From: Perna viridis
Taxonomy: Eukaryota
NCBI GenBank assembly: GCA_037379345.1
Contig: CM074521.1
Span: 25,692,704-25,756,703, forward strand
Reading direction: 5' to 3'
Length of the DNA: 64,000 nucleotides
Made by a program: the position numbers. The number at the start of each line of letters is the position of its first letter. Within the stretch, counting starts at the first letter, position 1. Below are positions 1 through 33,000 of the stretch, in pieces.

Positions 1-3000
1 AGATTACTTTTAACAGGATATTTAAGGAACAATTGTACTTAATACGGTTACAGAATATTGTCTACAGAAAGAGTTGTTTGGTCCAGTTGATAAATGTTAA
101 CAAAATCTGTTTAACCTTCTATAGTTTTCCATAAATGATGAGGCAATGACTGTTTTATGATGATTTGATAAACATGGTAATATGATGATATAAATATGTT
201 TATTATTTTCATTTTAGGACACACCTGTTAAACCTGGTGAGACCCTTGACTTGAAGAACATTGTTGCCAGCAAGGTGACAGTTCAAGTCAAACCAAAAGA
301 ACCCGGAAAACCAGCTGATGTAGACAAAATAACTTTAGAAATTTGCGAAAAACCTGGTAAGTTTTGTCTCATTTACTCTAGGTTCTGTCGTTTGGTTATT
401 AAATTTCTTTGTTGAAACACATGAGTTTGATTATAATTACGACACCGAAGACATACTGGCACGATGATTCACTGATATTTTTCTACTTGAAGCATCCTTA
501 AAGATGCCATCAATTCATTTTGTGTAATGTCAAAAAGGAATGGGGATGAAAGAACTGGGCTGCTTTAAGATTCCACTAAGCGTTAATAGAATAACACTAC
601 TGTCAGCTTTTAATCATGCATGCCTAACAATTTTACCAGTTCCAACATTTTCTCACTTGTCTTGTATATTTGCTTCTTTCACTAGTGACAACTGGTGTTA
701 CTACTGTGCCAACTGAAACCTCTCAGCCAGTACCAACTACGAAGCCAACTCCCGAAATTACAACTACGAGAGGAACAACTGCAGGTATCTTTGATAAAAT
801 GGGTATTGTTAATATCATTTCTGGAGGGTGGCTGAAGTGTTACTGATTACCGTTAGTTTAATAACTAGAATTATTCAATTTCAAGAACAATATTAGGAGC
901 TACGTCATTTTATGAAGGATGGGACCTAGGAATTAATGTTTTGAAGAGCTTGAGCTACACATGTATGAAAAAGAAGGAATTGTTACATGTATCTGCAGCA
1001 TACATTGATGAGAAACGTTTGCTTACATTGAACATAATTTGATGAAAATTGGTGGAATTTCTTATATTTGTTTAAAGAATAATAAAAAAAGATTTGTACA
1101 GTTTACATATGCAGAGAAATTAACTTCTCAGCTTTCCGCATTATTTGTATATGTAAAATATTTTTAATCACATTTTATAACTGGATCTCATTGTATATTT
1201 TTTCAAACGGTTATCATTGTAATGAACAATTACTGATGAATACAAGAACATAGATTTGACCATGCCCCCCAAAAAATATTAAGAGAATCTTTAATTTACC
1301 TTAAGGTACAACTACGGAAGAATGTGAAAAGGTTGACATTATGGATTCCATAAGTGTTGATTTAAGTGTGAAAAAGAATGACGAAGATGTTGGTACTGAT
1401 GACATCAAGGAAGACGATGACAAGAACTTACCTCTTGATGAAAACGATGTTTTGACATTGGAACCAAGCAGTCCTTCAGAAGTTGACAGCATCAACGTAA
1501 ATGGAGATAACATTGATGAAGTTCTTGTCACTGTTTATGATGAGGATGGAAATCCCACAGACATTGAGGTAGTGATATCACAGATTACTTTTAACAGGAT
1601 ATTTAAGGAACAATTGTACTTAATATGGTTACTGAATATTGTCTACAGAAAGAGTTGTTTGGTCCAGTTGATAAATGTTAGCAAAATCTGTTTAACCTTC
1701 TATAGTTTTCCATAAATGATGAGGCAATGACTGTTTTATGATGATTTGATAAACATGGTAATATGATAATATAAATATGTTTATTATTTTCATTTTAGGA
1801 CACACCTGTTAAACCTGGTGAGACCCTTGACTTGAAGAACATTGTTACCAGCAAGGTGACAGTTCAAGTCAAACCAAAAGAACCTGGAAAACCAGCTGAT
1901 GTAGACAAAATAACTTTAGAAATTTGCGAAAAACCTGGTAAGTTTTGTCTCATTTACTCTAGGTTCTGGGCGTTTGGTTATTAAATTTCTTTGTTGAAAC
2001 ACATGAGTTTGATTATAATTACGACACCGAAGACATACTGGCACGATGATTCACTGATATTTTTCTACTTGAAGCATCCTTAAAGATGCCATCAATTCAT
2101 TTTGTGTAATGTCAAAAAGGAATGGGGATGAAATAACTGGGCTGCTTTAAGATTCCACTTAGCGTTAATAGAATAACACTACTGTCAGCTTTTAATCATG
2201 CATGCCTAACAATTTTACCAGTTCCAACATTTCCTCACTTGTCTTATATGTTTGCTTCTTTCACTAGTGACAACTGGTGTTACTACTGTGCCAACTGAAA
2301 CCTCTCAGCCAGTACCAACTACGAAGCCAACTCCCGAAATTACAACTACGAGAGGAACAACTGCAGGTATCTTTGATCAAATGGGTATTGTTAATATCAT
2401 TTCTGGAGGGTGGCTGAAGTGTTACTGATTACCGTTAGTTTAATAACTAGAATTATTCCATTTCAAGAACAATATTAGGAGCTACGTCATTTTATGAAGG
2501 ATGGGACCTAGGAATTAATATTTTGAAGAGCTTCAGCTACACATGTATGAAAAAGAAGGAATTGTTATATGTATCTGCAGCATACATTGATGAGAAACGT
2601 TTGCTTACACTGAAGATAATTTGATGAAAATTGGTGGAATTTCTTATATTTGTTAAAAGAATAAAAAAAAAAAAGATTTGTACAGTTTACATATGCAGAG
2701 AAATTAACTTCTCAGCTTTCCGCATTATTTGTATATGTAAATTATTTTTAATCATATTTTATAACTGGATCTCATTGTATATTTTTTCGAACGGTTATCA
2801 TTGTAATGAACAATTACTGATGAATACAAGAACATAGATTTGACCATGCGCCCCCCCCCCCTAAAAAAAAGATATTAAGAGAATCTTTAATTTACCTTAA
2901 GGTACAACTACGGAAGAATGTGAAAAGGTTGACATTATGGATTCCATAAGTGTTGATTTAAGTGTGAAAAAGAATGACGAAGATGTTGGTACTGATGACA

Positions 3001-30000: not shown

Positions 30001-33000
30001 CACCTGTTAAACCTGGTGAGACCCTTGACTTGAAGAACATTGTTGCCAGCAAGGTGACAGTTCAAGTCAAACCAAAAGAACCCGGAAAACCAGCTGATGT
30101 GGACAAAATAACTTTAGAAATTTGCGAAAAACCTGGTAAGTTTTGTCTCATTTACTCTAGGTTCTGTCGTTTGGTTATTAAATTTCTTTGTTGAAACATA
30201 TGAGTTTGATTATAATTACGACACCGAAGACATACTGGCACGATGATTCACTGATATTTTTTACTTGAAGCATCCTTAAAGATGCCATCAATTCATTTTG
30301 TGTAATGTCAAAAAGGAATGGGGATGAAAGAACTGGGCTGCTTTAAGATTCCACTTAGCGTTAATAGAATAACACTGCTGTCACCTTTTAATCATGCATG
30401 CCTAACAATTTTACAGAGTTCCAACATTTTCTTACTTGTCTTGTATATTCGCTTTTTTCACTAGTGACAACTGGTGTTACTACTGTGCCAACTGAAACCT
30501 CTCAGCCAGTACCAACTACGAAACCAACTCCCGAAATTACAACTACGGGAGGAACAACTACAGGTATGTTTGATAAAATGGGTATTATGAATATCATTTC
30601 TAGAGGGTGCCTGAAGTGTTACTGATTACCGTTAGTTCAATAACTAGAATTATTCAATTTCAAGAACAACATTAGGAGCTTTATCATTTTATGAAGGATG
30701 GGGCCTAAGAATTAATGTTTTGAAGAGCTTGAGCTACACATGTATGAGAAAGAAGGAATTGTTACATGTATCTGCAGCATACATTGATGAGAAACGTTTG
30801 CTTACACTGAACATAGCTTGATGAAAATTGGTGGAATTTCTTATTATTTGTTAAAAGAATAATAAAAAAAGATTTGTACAGTTTACATATGCAGAGAAAT
30901 TAACTTCTCAGCTTTCCACATTATTTGTATATGTAAATTATTTTTAATCACATTTTATAACTGGATCTCATTGTATATTTTTTCGAACGGTTATCATTGT
31001 AATTAACAATGACTGATGAATACAAGAACATAGATTTGACCATGCCCTCCAAAAATATTAAGAGAATCTTTAATTTACCTTAAGGTACAACTACGGAAGA
31101 ATGTGAAAAGGTTGACATTATGGATTCAATAAGTGTTGATTTAAGTGTGAAAAAGAATGACGAAGATGTTGGTACTGATGACATCAAGGAAGACGATGAC
31201 AAGAACTTACCACTTGATGAAAACGATGTTTTGACATTGGAACCAAGCAGTCCTTCAGAAGTTGACAGCATCAACGTAAATGGAGATAACATTGATGAAG
31301 TTCTTGTCACTGTTTATGATGAGGATGGAAATCCCACAGACATTGAGGTAGTGATATCACAGATTACTTTTAACAGGATATTTAAGGAACAATTGTACTT
31401 AATATGGTTACAGAATATTGTCTACAGAAAGAGTTGTTTGGTCCAGTTGATAAATGTTAACAAAATCTGTTTAACCTTCTATAGTTTTCCATAAATGATG
31501 AGGCAATGACTGTTTTATGATGATTTGATAAACATGGTAATATGATGATATAAATATGTTTATTATTTTCATTTTAGGACACACCTGTTAAACCTGGTGA
31601 GACCCTTGACTTGAAGAACATTGTTGCCAGCAAGGTGACAGTTCAAGTCAAACCAAAAGAACCCGGAAAACCAGCTGATGTAGACAAAATAACTTTAGAA
31701 ATTTGCGAAAAACCTGGTAAGTTTTGTCTCATTTACTCTAGGTTCTGTCGTTTGGTTATTAAATTTCTTTGTTGAAACATATGAGTTTGATTATAATTAC
31801 AACACCGAAGACATACTGGCACGATGATTCACTGATATTTGTTTACTTGAAGCATCCTTAAAGATGCCATCAATTCATTTTGTGTAATGTCAAAAAGGAA
31901 TGGGGATGAAAGAACTGGGCTGCTTTAAGATTCCACTTAGCGTTAATAGAATAACACTGCTGTCACCTTTTAATCATGTATGCCTAACAATTTTACAGAG
32001 TTCCAACATTTTCTTACTTGTCTTGTATATTCGCTTTTTTCATTAGTGACAACTGGTGTTACTACTGTGCCAACTGAAACCTCTCAGCCAGTACCAACTA
32101 CGAAACCAACTCCCGAAATTACAACTACGGGAGGAACAACTACAGGTATGTTTGATAAAATGGGTATTATGAATATCATTTCTAGAGGGTGCCTGAAGTG
32201 TTACTGATTACCGTTAGTTCAATAACTAGAATTATTCAATTTCAAGAACAACATTAGGAGCTACATCATTTTATGAAGGATGGGGCCTAAGAATTAATGT
32301 TTTGAAGAGCTACACATGTATGAGAAAGAAGGAAAAAAACCTGGTGAGATTTGTTTATTTTCTCTAGGTTCTGTCTTTTGATTATAACAAAGACACCTAA
32401 GAAATACTAGCATGATGGTTCACAAATTTTTATCACGTTAGAGGACTGTCAAAGATGATGCCATCAATTCACTTTGGTTAATATGAAAATTAAATATGGA
32501 GTTCTGGGATTGGGTTTCCTTTAAGATTGGACATGGCATTTATAATACAAATTCACTATTATCACCTTTTTATCACGTATGCTTAACAATTTTATACATT
32601 TTCTCATTTGTCTTGTATTTTACTTCTTTCACTAGTGACTGCTGGTGTTACTACTGTGCCAACTGAAACCTCTCAGGCAGCACCTACTTCGAAACCAGGA
32701 CCTGAAATCACAACTCCGGGAGGAACAACTACAGGTGTGTTTGATAAAATGGGTATTTTGAATACCATTTTAGGAAAGTGCCTAAATTGTTACTGATAAC
32801 TGTAAATGCAACAAGTAGAATTTTACAAGTTTTTAGAAAGCATAAGGATATACATCATTTTTTGGAAGATCAGGTCGAAGAATTCATTACGTGCTTTGGA
32901 AGGAAAGCATTGTTCCTACAATTAAAAAGAGATTGTTGATATTGAACATTATTTGTTTAACACAATCTAGTTTAACATGAAGGAAGCATGCTTGAAGCTT

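What the first reader, a model, noticed from the sequence alone, without database searches (positions are those of the whole stretch)
1..32734. Protein-coding 'macrosatellite': introns homogenised together with exons
Seen: ~1,585 bp cassettes in which ~1.08 kb of intron is almost as identical between copies as the exons are. Indels are confined to introns, and exon lengths (263/139/99) appear invariant. Inference: very recent or ongoing unequal crossing-over or gene conversion with selection to preserve frame. Copy number, and so protein length in 167-aa steps, is likely polymorphic among individuals.
Basis: partly seen in the sequence, partly recalled or inferred. Interest (0 to 1): 0.7.

Follow-up and report, generated by a model that had tools for sequence, protein, structure and literature searches.

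The report
Mussel-like mucin gene built from repeated exon-intron cassettes
The window is part of one giant mucin-like gene, probably from a bivalve, in which whole exon-plus-intron cassettes coding for a sugar-rich linker and a discoidin-like domain are repeated head to tail and kept almost identical; this is real but is a known kind of gene architecture.

Summary
Positions 1-32734 hold about 20 head-to-tail cassettes of 1581-1596 bp. Each has three exons of exactly 139, 99 and 263 nt (501 nt, 167 aa). All 62 exons have AG/GT splice sites, no stop and no indel. Introns differ 2.8% between units and exons 1.05%. Intron variability matches synonymous-site variability, so the introns are carried along neutrally.

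A mosaic of shared variants, a duplicated 3.8-kb higher-order block and more divergent edge units point to unequal crossing-over or gene conversion of whole cassettes.

The gene fills the whole window. It has a second array (49929-64000+, 1499-bp units, 99.6% identical), a third (38459-43779) and four single diverged copies of the same module.

The module is a Pro/Thr/Ser linker plus a ~130-aa domain bounded by two Cys, with no Pfam match. A homologue's repeat models as a discoidin/CBM32-like jelly roll. The closest named relative is a Mytilus coruscus protein with 13 near-identical repeats. A more distant relative carries VWD-C8-TIL mucin assemblies.

Copy-number polymorphism and expression could not be tested. 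Comparable cases are LPA KIV-2, schistosome SmPoMuc and spider silk genes. This is a new member of a known kind.

The parts
1..32734 (+). Array 1: about 20 cassettes of ~1585 bp (139-nt exon, 99-nt exon, 263-nt exon); truncated by the window's 5' edge
218..356 (+). Reference 139-nt exon (C-terminal third of the domain, ends with the second Cys); phase 0 in, phase 1 out; 20 copies
686..784 (+). Reference 99-nt exon: Pro/Thr/Ser linker (62% T+S+P), phase 1 in and out; 23 copies
1306..1568 (+). Reference 263-nt exon (N-terminal two thirds of the domain, first Cys, 33% Asp+Glu); phase 1 in, phase 0 out; 19 copies
9730..13528 (+). Higher-order block, copy 1: canonical exons plus an extra linker exon (10752-10850) and a diverged cassette (11564-11826, 12056-12194, 12528-12626)
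13529..17325 (+). Higher-order block, copy 2; differs from copy 1 by 0.18% in exons and 0.93% in introns
32636..32734 (+). Last linker exon of array 1 (variant type)
33116..34563 (+). Single diverged module in two exons (33116-33420 and 34428-34563)
38459..43779 (+). Array 3: three modules of two exons each (38459-38793/39169-39304, 40553-40890/41265-41400, 42656-42993/43644-43779); units of ~2.1 kb, ~94% identical
44054..44821 (+). Single module (44054-44406 and 44686-44821)
45755..46864 (+). Single module (45755-46107 and 46729-46864)
47302..48541 (+). Single module (47302-47660 and 48403-48541)
49929..64000 (+). Array 2: 1499-bp cassettes of two exons (320 nt, e.g. 49931-50250; 139 nt, e.g. 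50571-50709; 459 nt = 153 aa); 10 and 9 exon copies; runs off the 3' edge

Best explanation
The window is an internal part of one very large gene on the + strand. It encodes a secreted, mucin-like protein, most likely from a bivalve mollusc.

The protein is a string of modules. Each module is a Pro/Thr/Ser-rich linker, presumably O-glycosylated, followed by an acidic ~130-aa beta-sandwich domain with a Cys at each end. By homology this domain has a discoidin/CBM32-like (galactose-binding-domain-like) jelly-roll fold. It may act as a lectin-like or cross-linking knot between glycosylated stretches. That function is inferred and was not shown.

Every module is encoded by a cassette of two or three exons whose summed length is a multiple of three, with phase 1 at both ends. 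Adding or removing a whole cassette therefore keeps the reading frame.

Three module types have been amplified in place as exon-plus-intron units of 1585, 2100 and 1499 bp. Unequal crossing-over between misaligned cassettes, and/or gene conversion, acts on whole cassettes or multiples of them. Introns are therefore duplicated and replaced together with exons and stay as alike as neutral sites do. Purifying selection additionally removes amino-acid changes and any exonic indel.

Shown here: the anatomy, intact coding capacity, introns behaving like synonymous sites, mosaic variant patterns, and homology to a Mytilus protein.
Inferred: the exchange mechanism, secretion, glycosylation and ligand binding.
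For: Anatomy:
- 62 of 62 array-1 exons have AG/GT, invariant length and no stop.
- All 19 array-2 exons behave likewise.
- The intervening modules have matching phases.

Coding constraint:
- Canonical versus variant cassette, domain exons: dS 0.21, dN 0.042, omega 0.20. Introns of the same pair are about 22% diverged.
- Among canonical copies, 7 of 110.3 synonymous sites and 10 of 384.7 non-synonymous sites vary.

Introns as neutral passengers:
- Array 1: divergence 1.05% in exons and 2.80% in introns.
- Array 2: 0.35% and 0.37%.

Exchange between units:
- 359 of 3081 site pairs show four gametes, and units 11 and 15 have chimaeric patterns.
- The 5' units alternate between two types.
- There is a duplicated 3.8-kb block.
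- Units at block edges sit on longer branches.

Family:
- A profile of 8 single-exon translations found 44 proteins at E<=1e-3 among 1.84 billion.
- The best hit, P0001 (E 6e-128), has 13 repeats that are on average 98.2% identical to each other. It is an unnamed protein product of Mytilus coruscus.
- P0016 carries 3 VWD, 3 C8, 3 TIL and 3 LDLa domains, followed by at least 10 linker-plus-domain modules.

Fold:
- The AlphaFold2 model of one P0001 repeat has pLDDT 82.7 and pTM 0.75 and is all-beta.
- Foldseek gives 32 PDB matches at E<=1e-3. The listed ones are almost all galactose-binding-domain-like sandwiches: IFT25, CBM32, APC10, discoidin II, factor VIII C2. TM is 0.53-0.65.

Literature: Lang et al. 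2016 state that mucin-like proteins are numerous in Lophotrochozoa and that the F5_F8 domain is characteristic there (PMC4948705, passages).
Against: - No transcript or protein evidence was available, so splicing is inferred from sequence only.
- No Pfam family matches the domain, including F5_F8_type_C. This holds for 10 window exon translations at E<=1 and for P0001, P0016, P0033, P0035, P0044 and P0029 at E<=0.01. P0001 gave only summed weak hits, such as Malectin 1.3e-10 with no single stretch passing.
- No PDB sequence matches.
- The fold was modelled on a homologue only 38% identical to the window's first-half exon. The window's own domain was not folded, because that needs joined exons.
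- The window contains no VWD, C8, TIL, signal peptide or gene end, so 'gel-forming mucin' is not shown for this gene.
- Several weaker hits (P0007, P0009, P0011) are bacterial repeat proteins matched over short stretches. They are probably not relatives.
- Array-3 exons are more diverged than its introns (4.9% against 3.2%), because the linker part changes fast. 'Exons more conserved than introns' is therefore not universal in this gene.
- The organism is inferred, not known.
Confidence: 0.72

Rival explanations
1. A one-off recent burst of tandem duplication, with no continuing homogenisation. The units are alike only because they are young.
For: Divergence is very low within blocks (intron 1.1-1.5% in array 1; 0.37% in array 2). 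Variant blocks are position-linked, which successive segmental duplications would also give.
Against: Chimaeric units and 359 of 3081 four-gamete site pairs need exchange between already diverged units. The Mytilus coruscus relative has its own set of 13 repeats at 98% identity. This suggests that homogeneity is a standing property of the family. It is no proof, since no second array of the same type was compared.
Confidence: 0.2
2. Assembly artefact: the copy number, or part of the array, was inflated or mis-joined by the assembler.
For: Long near-identical tandem arrays are error-prone to assemble. Some segments (263-nt exon to next linker exon, ~1060 bp) are identical: 19 segments give only 16 different sequences. 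No reads were available.
Against: Units differ by substitutions shared among subsets in a structured, mosaic way (83 informative columns). Three separate arrays with different unit lengths show the same architecture. Reading frames are intact throughout.
Confidence: 0.07
3. The architecture is as described, but the protein is not a mucus mucin. It could be another secreted structural product, such as an acidic shell-matrix, adhesive or egg-coat protein.
For: The domain is strongly acidic: 33% Asp+Glu in the 263-nt exon. The window has no VWD, C8 or TIL domain. P0001 has none either. Tissue of expression is unknown.
Against: The more distant relative P0016 joins the same modules to three VWD-C8-TIL assemblies. 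The linkers are typical Pro/Thr/Ser stretches.
Confidence: 0.25
4. A non-coding satellite, or a dead gene whose open frames are a leftover.
For: There is no expression evidence.
Against: 81 of 81 array-1 and array-2 exons are intact with splice sites. Omega is 0.20 between diverged cassettes. Related open frames at 57-60% identity exist in other sequences for three module types.
Confidence: 0.03

Closest known systems
Human LPA kringle IV type 2 repeat
   Same: An intragenic tandem repeat of kilobase units, each holding exons and introns and coding for one protein domain. Copy number sets protein length (abstracts of PMC6314250 and PMC11515395 seen in listing: 5.5-5.6 kb unit, more than 40 isoforms).
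   Different: Different domain (kringle), larger unit and a single array. Here there are three arrays of related modules in one gene, and polymorphism is untested.
Schistosoma mansoni polymorphic mucins (SmPoMuc), exon 2 genomic repeats
   Same: A mucin gene in which an exon with its flanking introns is tandemly repeated in ~1-kb units more than 93% alike. The authors ascribe this to concerted evolution by gene conversion and/or unequal crossing-over (PMC2576457, passages).
   Different: The SmPoMuc repeated exon is tiny and codes only the mucin repeat. Here each cassette has 2-3 exons and codes a folded domain plus linker.
Spider flagelliform and Argiope MaSp2 silk genes
   Same: Iterated exon-intron units with highly homogenised introns (mean 97.6% within a gene) and alternating intron types. 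Unequal crossing-over is proposed (PMC9779670, passages).
   Different: The silk exons are low-complexity motifs, not a globular domain. In Flag the introns are reported to be more homogenised than the exons (as cited in PMC2576457). In array 1 the exons are the more alike.
Lophotrochozoan mucin-like proteins with F5/8 type C domains; insect hemolectin
   Same: VWD-C8-TIL proteins combining Pro/Thr/Ser stretches with discoidin-type domains (PMC4948705, passages). The relative P0016 has that N-terminal architecture. The modelled fold is discoidin/CBM32-like.
   Different: The domain here does not match Pfam F5_F8_type_C. It is repeated tens of times, alternating with linkers. The window itself shows no VWD part.

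Membership tests
Intragenic exon-intron tandem array (coding macrosatellite/VNTR) under concerted evolution | Head-to-tail units, each containing whole exons and introns | tested here: met
Intragenic exon-intron tandem array (coding macrosatellite/VNTR) under concerted evolution | Coding length per unit is a multiple of three, with matching splice phases | tested here: met
   501 nt (array 1) and 459 nt (array 2), phase 1 at both cassette ends
Intragenic exon-intron tandem array (coding macrosatellite/VNTR) under concerted evolution | Introns about as alike as neutral coding sites | tested here: met
Intragenic exon-intron tandem array (coding macrosatellite/VNTR) under concerted evolution | Units more alike within a genome than orthologous units between species | tested here: inconclusive
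   Single related open frames at 57-60% identity for three module types, and 98% identity among the 13 repeats of the Mytilus coruscus protein. No second array of the same type was available.
Intragenic exon-intron tandem array (coding macrosatellite/VNTR) under concerted evolution | Copy number varies among individuals | not testable with these tools
   No reads and no other haplotypes.
Mucin / gel-forming mucin | Pro/Thr/Ser-rich (PTS) regions | tested here: met
   62% T+S+P in the 99-nt exon; T-rich starts of the other first-half exons
Mucin / gel-forming mucin | VWD-C8-TIL assemblies at the N terminus | tested here: inconclusive
   None in the window, but the gene runs off both ends. Present in the distant relative P0016, absent from P0001.
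Mucin / gel-forming mucin | Secretion and dense O-glycosylation | not testable with these tools
   The 5' end of the gene is outside the window.
F5/8 type C (discoidin) domain, Pfam PF00754 | Sequence match to the family profile | tested here: not met
   No hit for 10 exon translations at E<=1, nor for P0001, P0016, P0033, P0035, P0044 and P0029 at E<=0.01.
Galactose-binding-domain-like superfamily (discoidin, CBM32, APC10/DOC, IFT25) | Jelly-roll beta sandwich superposable on members | tested here: met
   The model of one repeat of the homologue P0001 has pLDDT 82.7 and 32 PDB matches at E<=1e-3 with TM 0.53-0.65. Weak language-model leads point to F5_F8_type_C/CBM32 for P0035 (scores 0.77-0.79). 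The window's own domain was not folded.
Galactose-binding-domain-like superfamily (discoidin, CBM32, APC10/DOC, IFT25) | One disulfide joining the first and last strands (hallmark of discoidin domains; recalled, not from a call) | tested here: inconclusive
   One invariant Cys near each end of the domain in all window copies. It is also present in the relatives aligned. The distance in the model could not be measured.
Galactose-binding-domain-like superfamily (discoidin, CBM32, APC10/DOC, IFT25) | Binding of a sugar or other ligand | not testable with these tools
   Needs an experiment.

The most novel reading that the evidence does not exclude
The three arrays are hypervariable among individuals in unit number and in the mosaic of unit variants. 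Each animal would then make its own length and sequence version of a lectin-studded mucin. The repeated domain would be a previously unrecognised, mollusc-centred branch of the discoidin/CBM32 fold that binds glycans, so array turnover would tune mucus cross-linking or the capture of microbes and particles.
Probability: 0.2. Interest if true: 0.6.

Novelty: new member of a known kind. Interest (0 to 1): 0.38.

Why it matters
It is a clean, multi-array example of cassette-wise concerted evolution in a coding gene outside vertebrates, spiders and schistosomes. It also offers an internal control: introns behave like synonymous sites.

Practical points:
- Such genes are easily mis-assembled and mis-annotated, and their protein length is probably not a fixed trait.
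- The repeated domain has no family assignment in Pfam but appears to be a discoidin-like module. This adds a candidate lectin-type building block to invertebrate mucins and links to the reported abundance of F5/8-type domains in lophotrochozoan mucin-like proteins.

Tried and rejected
- TRF found only two short intronic repeats, because its longest period is 500.
- A fuzzy-regex exon scan timed out and was replaced by BLAST.
- Pfam on 10 exon translations gave nothing above noise.
- Pfam on 8 intronic or antisense open frames gave nothing credible. Rfam gave 0 matches and the tRNA scan 0 genes. No second gene or obvious mobile element was identified.
- The search for homologous proteins with a first-half exon found nothing among longer proteins of 159-2000 aa. 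Among near-length proteins it found only the window's own frame.
- ESM Atlas with a window exon gave no usable hit.
- A PDB sequence search with the domain alignment gave nothing meaningful, best E 0.18.
The sources and names of P0002-P0044 are therefore unknown. Only P0001 was named.
- Alignment A4, which added the second-half exons as fragments, misplaced their first residues. It was not used for folding.
- The third comparison (array-3 unit 2 versus a partial unit 3) used mismatched spans. Its intron figure is discarded.
- I rejected the idea that the introns are themselves under selection. Their variability equals that of synonymous sites.
- I rejected the bacterial hits (InlB B-repeat and SprB proteins) as relatives.
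Full report
**Observation**

The window has no N and about 33% G+C throughout. A self-comparison of 1-3200 against the window gives a ladder of full-length matches every 1581-1596 bp from position 1 to 32334. Identity is 95.8-99.4%, and the ladder is broken between 10487 and 17109. TRF cannot see this because its longest period is 500.

Reading unit 1 shows three open segments with canonical splice sites:
- 218-356 (139 nt)
- 686-784 (99 nt)
- 1306-1568 (263 nt)

BLAST with these three segments finds 20, 23 and 19 copies between 1 and 32734, all without a gap. In that listing the coordinates of the 99-nt exon are shifted by +1. All 62 of 62 copies are flanked by AG and GT, and all 62 of 62 are open in the expected phase. 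The phases are 0/1, 1/1 and 1/0, so one cassette adds 501 nt, or 167 aa, in frame.

**Exons compared with introns**

I aligned 15 of the 20 units, counting units from each 139-nt exon to the next. The five left out were four that contain the variant cassette or an extra linker exon, and the terminal unit.

| Comparison | Exon divergence | Intron divergence |
|---|---|---|
| All pairs | 1.05% | 2.80% |
| Within the 5' block | 0.44% | 1.51% |
| Within the 3' block | 0.45% | 1.13% |
| Between blocks | 1.62% | 4.29% |

All 26 gap columns lie in introns. They make 13 events, none in the 501 exon columns. That is roughly P=0.008 if indels fell evenly, but most sit in intronic A, C or T runs, so the test is weak.

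Among canonical exon copies, 7 of 110.3 synonymous sites and 10 of 384.7 non-synonymous sites vary. Half of the non-synonymous changes lie at the end of the linker exon. In introns, 89 of 1102 columns vary. Introns therefore behave like synonymous sites. They are passengers and are not conserved for their own sake.

Canonical and diverged cassettes can also be compared. The domain exons give dS 0.21, dN 0.042 and omega 0.20, and the introns of that pair are about 22% diverged. This is the signature of a functional coding sequence. The linker exon is much less constrained (pN 0.136, pS 0.20).

**Evidence for exchange between units**

- The 83 informative columns form a mosaic. Units 11 and 15 carry the 3'-block pattern in their first half and a 5'-block-like pattern in the second. 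Unit 6 is also mixed. In all, 359 of 3081 pairs of biallelic sites show all four combinations.
- The first six units alternate between two subtypes. The 2-unit register is 99.4% identical.
- A 3.8-kb block occurs twice. It holds canonical exons, an extra linker exon and a diverged cassette. The two copies differ by 0.18% in exons and 0.93% in introns.
- I built a tree of all 19 segments running from a 263-nt exon to the next linker exon. The two diverged cassettes sit on a branch of about 0.34 changes per site. All others lie within about 0.02. Units bordering the irregular block or the array's end sit on the longer branches, as expected if unequal exchange is rarer at edges.

Together this favours unequal crossing-over and/or conversion acting on whole cassettes. 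It does not exclude that most of the similarity is simply youth.

**The rest of the window**

The gene does not stop at 32734. Every later open segment on the + strand is a further copy of the same module. In these copies the linker and the first two thirds of the domain share one exon (305-359 nt, phase 1/0). A 136-139-nt exon (phase 0/1) follows.

- Single modules lie at 33116-34563, 44054-44821, 45755-46864 and 47302-48541.
- Three modules at 38459-43779 form a 2.1-kb array of about 94% identity.
- From 49929 to the window's end there are 10 copies of a 320-nt exon and 9 of a 139-nt exon, in 1499-bp units. Here exons differ 0.35% and introns 0.37%, and the 3 gap columns are intronic.

Different module types are only 14-36% identical in protein. 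They share no intron similarity at the BLAST threshold used. The types are therefore old and the copies within an array young.

**What the module is**

The linker exon is 62% Thr+Ser+Pro. The 263-nt exon is 33% Asp+Glu. Each half of the domain carries one invariant Cys.

I did not build, search or fold a joined model. Results were:
- Pfam found nothing for 10 exon translations.
- A profile of eight first-half exon translations, searched against 1.84 billion representatives, gave 44 proteins at E<=1e-3, 14 of them at E<=1e-10.
- Five short hits are open frames identical or nearly identical to the window (P0003 and P0006 exact; P0002, P0004 and P0005 not exact).
- Others are single frames 49-60% identical to three module types: P0013, P0014, P0008, P0021, P0040 and P0042.
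- The best hit, P0001 (2998 aa, E 6e-128), consists of 13 linker-plus-domain repeats averaging 98.2% identity to each other. It is an unnamed protein product of Mytilus coruscus.
- P0016 (3551 aa) has three VWD, three C8, three TIL and three LDLa domains, followed by at least ten such modules.
- Some weaker hits are bacterial repeat proteins matched over short stretches. I do not count them as relatives.

**Fold**

I aligned one full repeat of P0001 with one stretch each of P0016, P0033, P0035 and P0044 and the eight window first-half exons. AlphaFold2 modelled the P0001 repeat as an all-beta sandwich, with mean pLDDT 82.7 and pTM 0.75. Foldseek against the PDB gave 32 matches at E<=1e-3. The listed ones are almost all galactose-binding-domain-like jelly rolls, with TM 0.53-0.65: IFT25, family 32 carbohydrate-binding modules, APC10/DOC, discoidin II and factor VIII C2. 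A language-model search with P0035 gave only weak leads, to F5_F8_type_C and CBM32 clusters.

The fold assignment for the window's own domain is by homology. Its first-half exon is 38% identical to P0001.

Lang et al. 2016 write that lophotrochozoans have many mucin-like proteins and that the F5_F8 domain is characteristic of them (PMC4948705, passages only). Their supplementary figure, which I could not see, may already show such architectures.

**Organism**

I do not take the window for human. A bivalve origin is an inference.

**How it compares with known cases**

- SmPoMuc genes have ~1-kb genomic repeats of one exon plus introns, more than 93% alike, discussed as concerted evolution (PMC2576457, passages).
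- Argiope MaSp2 and flagelliform silk genes have iterated, homogenised and sometimes alternating introns (PMC9779670, passages).
- LPA KIV-2 is a 5.5-5.6-kb coding repeat with more than 40 isoforms (abstracts in the listing).

Two searches for a description of this gene or domain in mussels found none. That covers only those terms in the open-access library.

**What stayed unchecked**

- Reads, other haplotypes, transcripts and the gene ends.
- The collections metagenome contigs and viral contigs, which were closed.
- Genome contigs was not used, because it holds prokaryotes only.
- Cluster names, because one search was unavailable.
- Supplements of papers.
- Any analysis of the joined coding sequence.

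**Verdict**

It is a new example of a known architecture, with a repeated domain that is unassigned in Pfam and probably discoidin-like.

Noticed in passing
window 34539-34717: A 51-bp unit repeated 3.5 times (79% matches) starts inside the 3' end of the exon 34428-34563. It re-copies the end of the exon together with its splice donor, creating look-alike donor sites downstream. 51 is a multiple of three.
   Followed up: partly
window 34008-34159: A perfect 79-bp tandem duplication (1.9 copies, 100% identical) lies in the intron between the two exons of the 33.1-kb module.
   Followed up: no
window 10198-10850 and 13997-14649; also 32047-32734: Two linker exons follow each other without a domain between them (canonical type, then variant type). 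The 99-nt exon has phase 1 at both ends, so linker length can change in 33-aa steps independently of the domain.
   Followed up: partly
window 45685-46149, 47289-47669 and array 2; proteins P0002, P0004, P0005: The protein library holds open frames almost, but not exactly, identical to window frames. P0002, for example, differs at two residues from a single-copy module. They may come from another haplotype, another individual or copies outside the window. Their sources could not be seen.
   Followed up: partly
window ~1255-1275 and the equivalent place in each array-1 unit (alignment columns 1063-1075): A C-run followed by an A-run in the second intron is the main indel hot spot of the cassette, with a 12-column length difference in one unit. 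It could be sequencing or assembly noise as well as real slippage.
   Followed up: no
window 38459-40552 versus 40553-42655: In array 3 the exons are more diverged than the introns (4.9% against 3.2%). The Thr-rich linker part of the first exon has been largely rewritten while the domain part is unchanged.
   Followed up: partly
protein P0016, residues ~2230-2830: This VWD-bearing relative contains its own two-module higher-order repeat of near-identical sequence. Cassette-wise amplification therefore recurs in the family.
   Followed up: no
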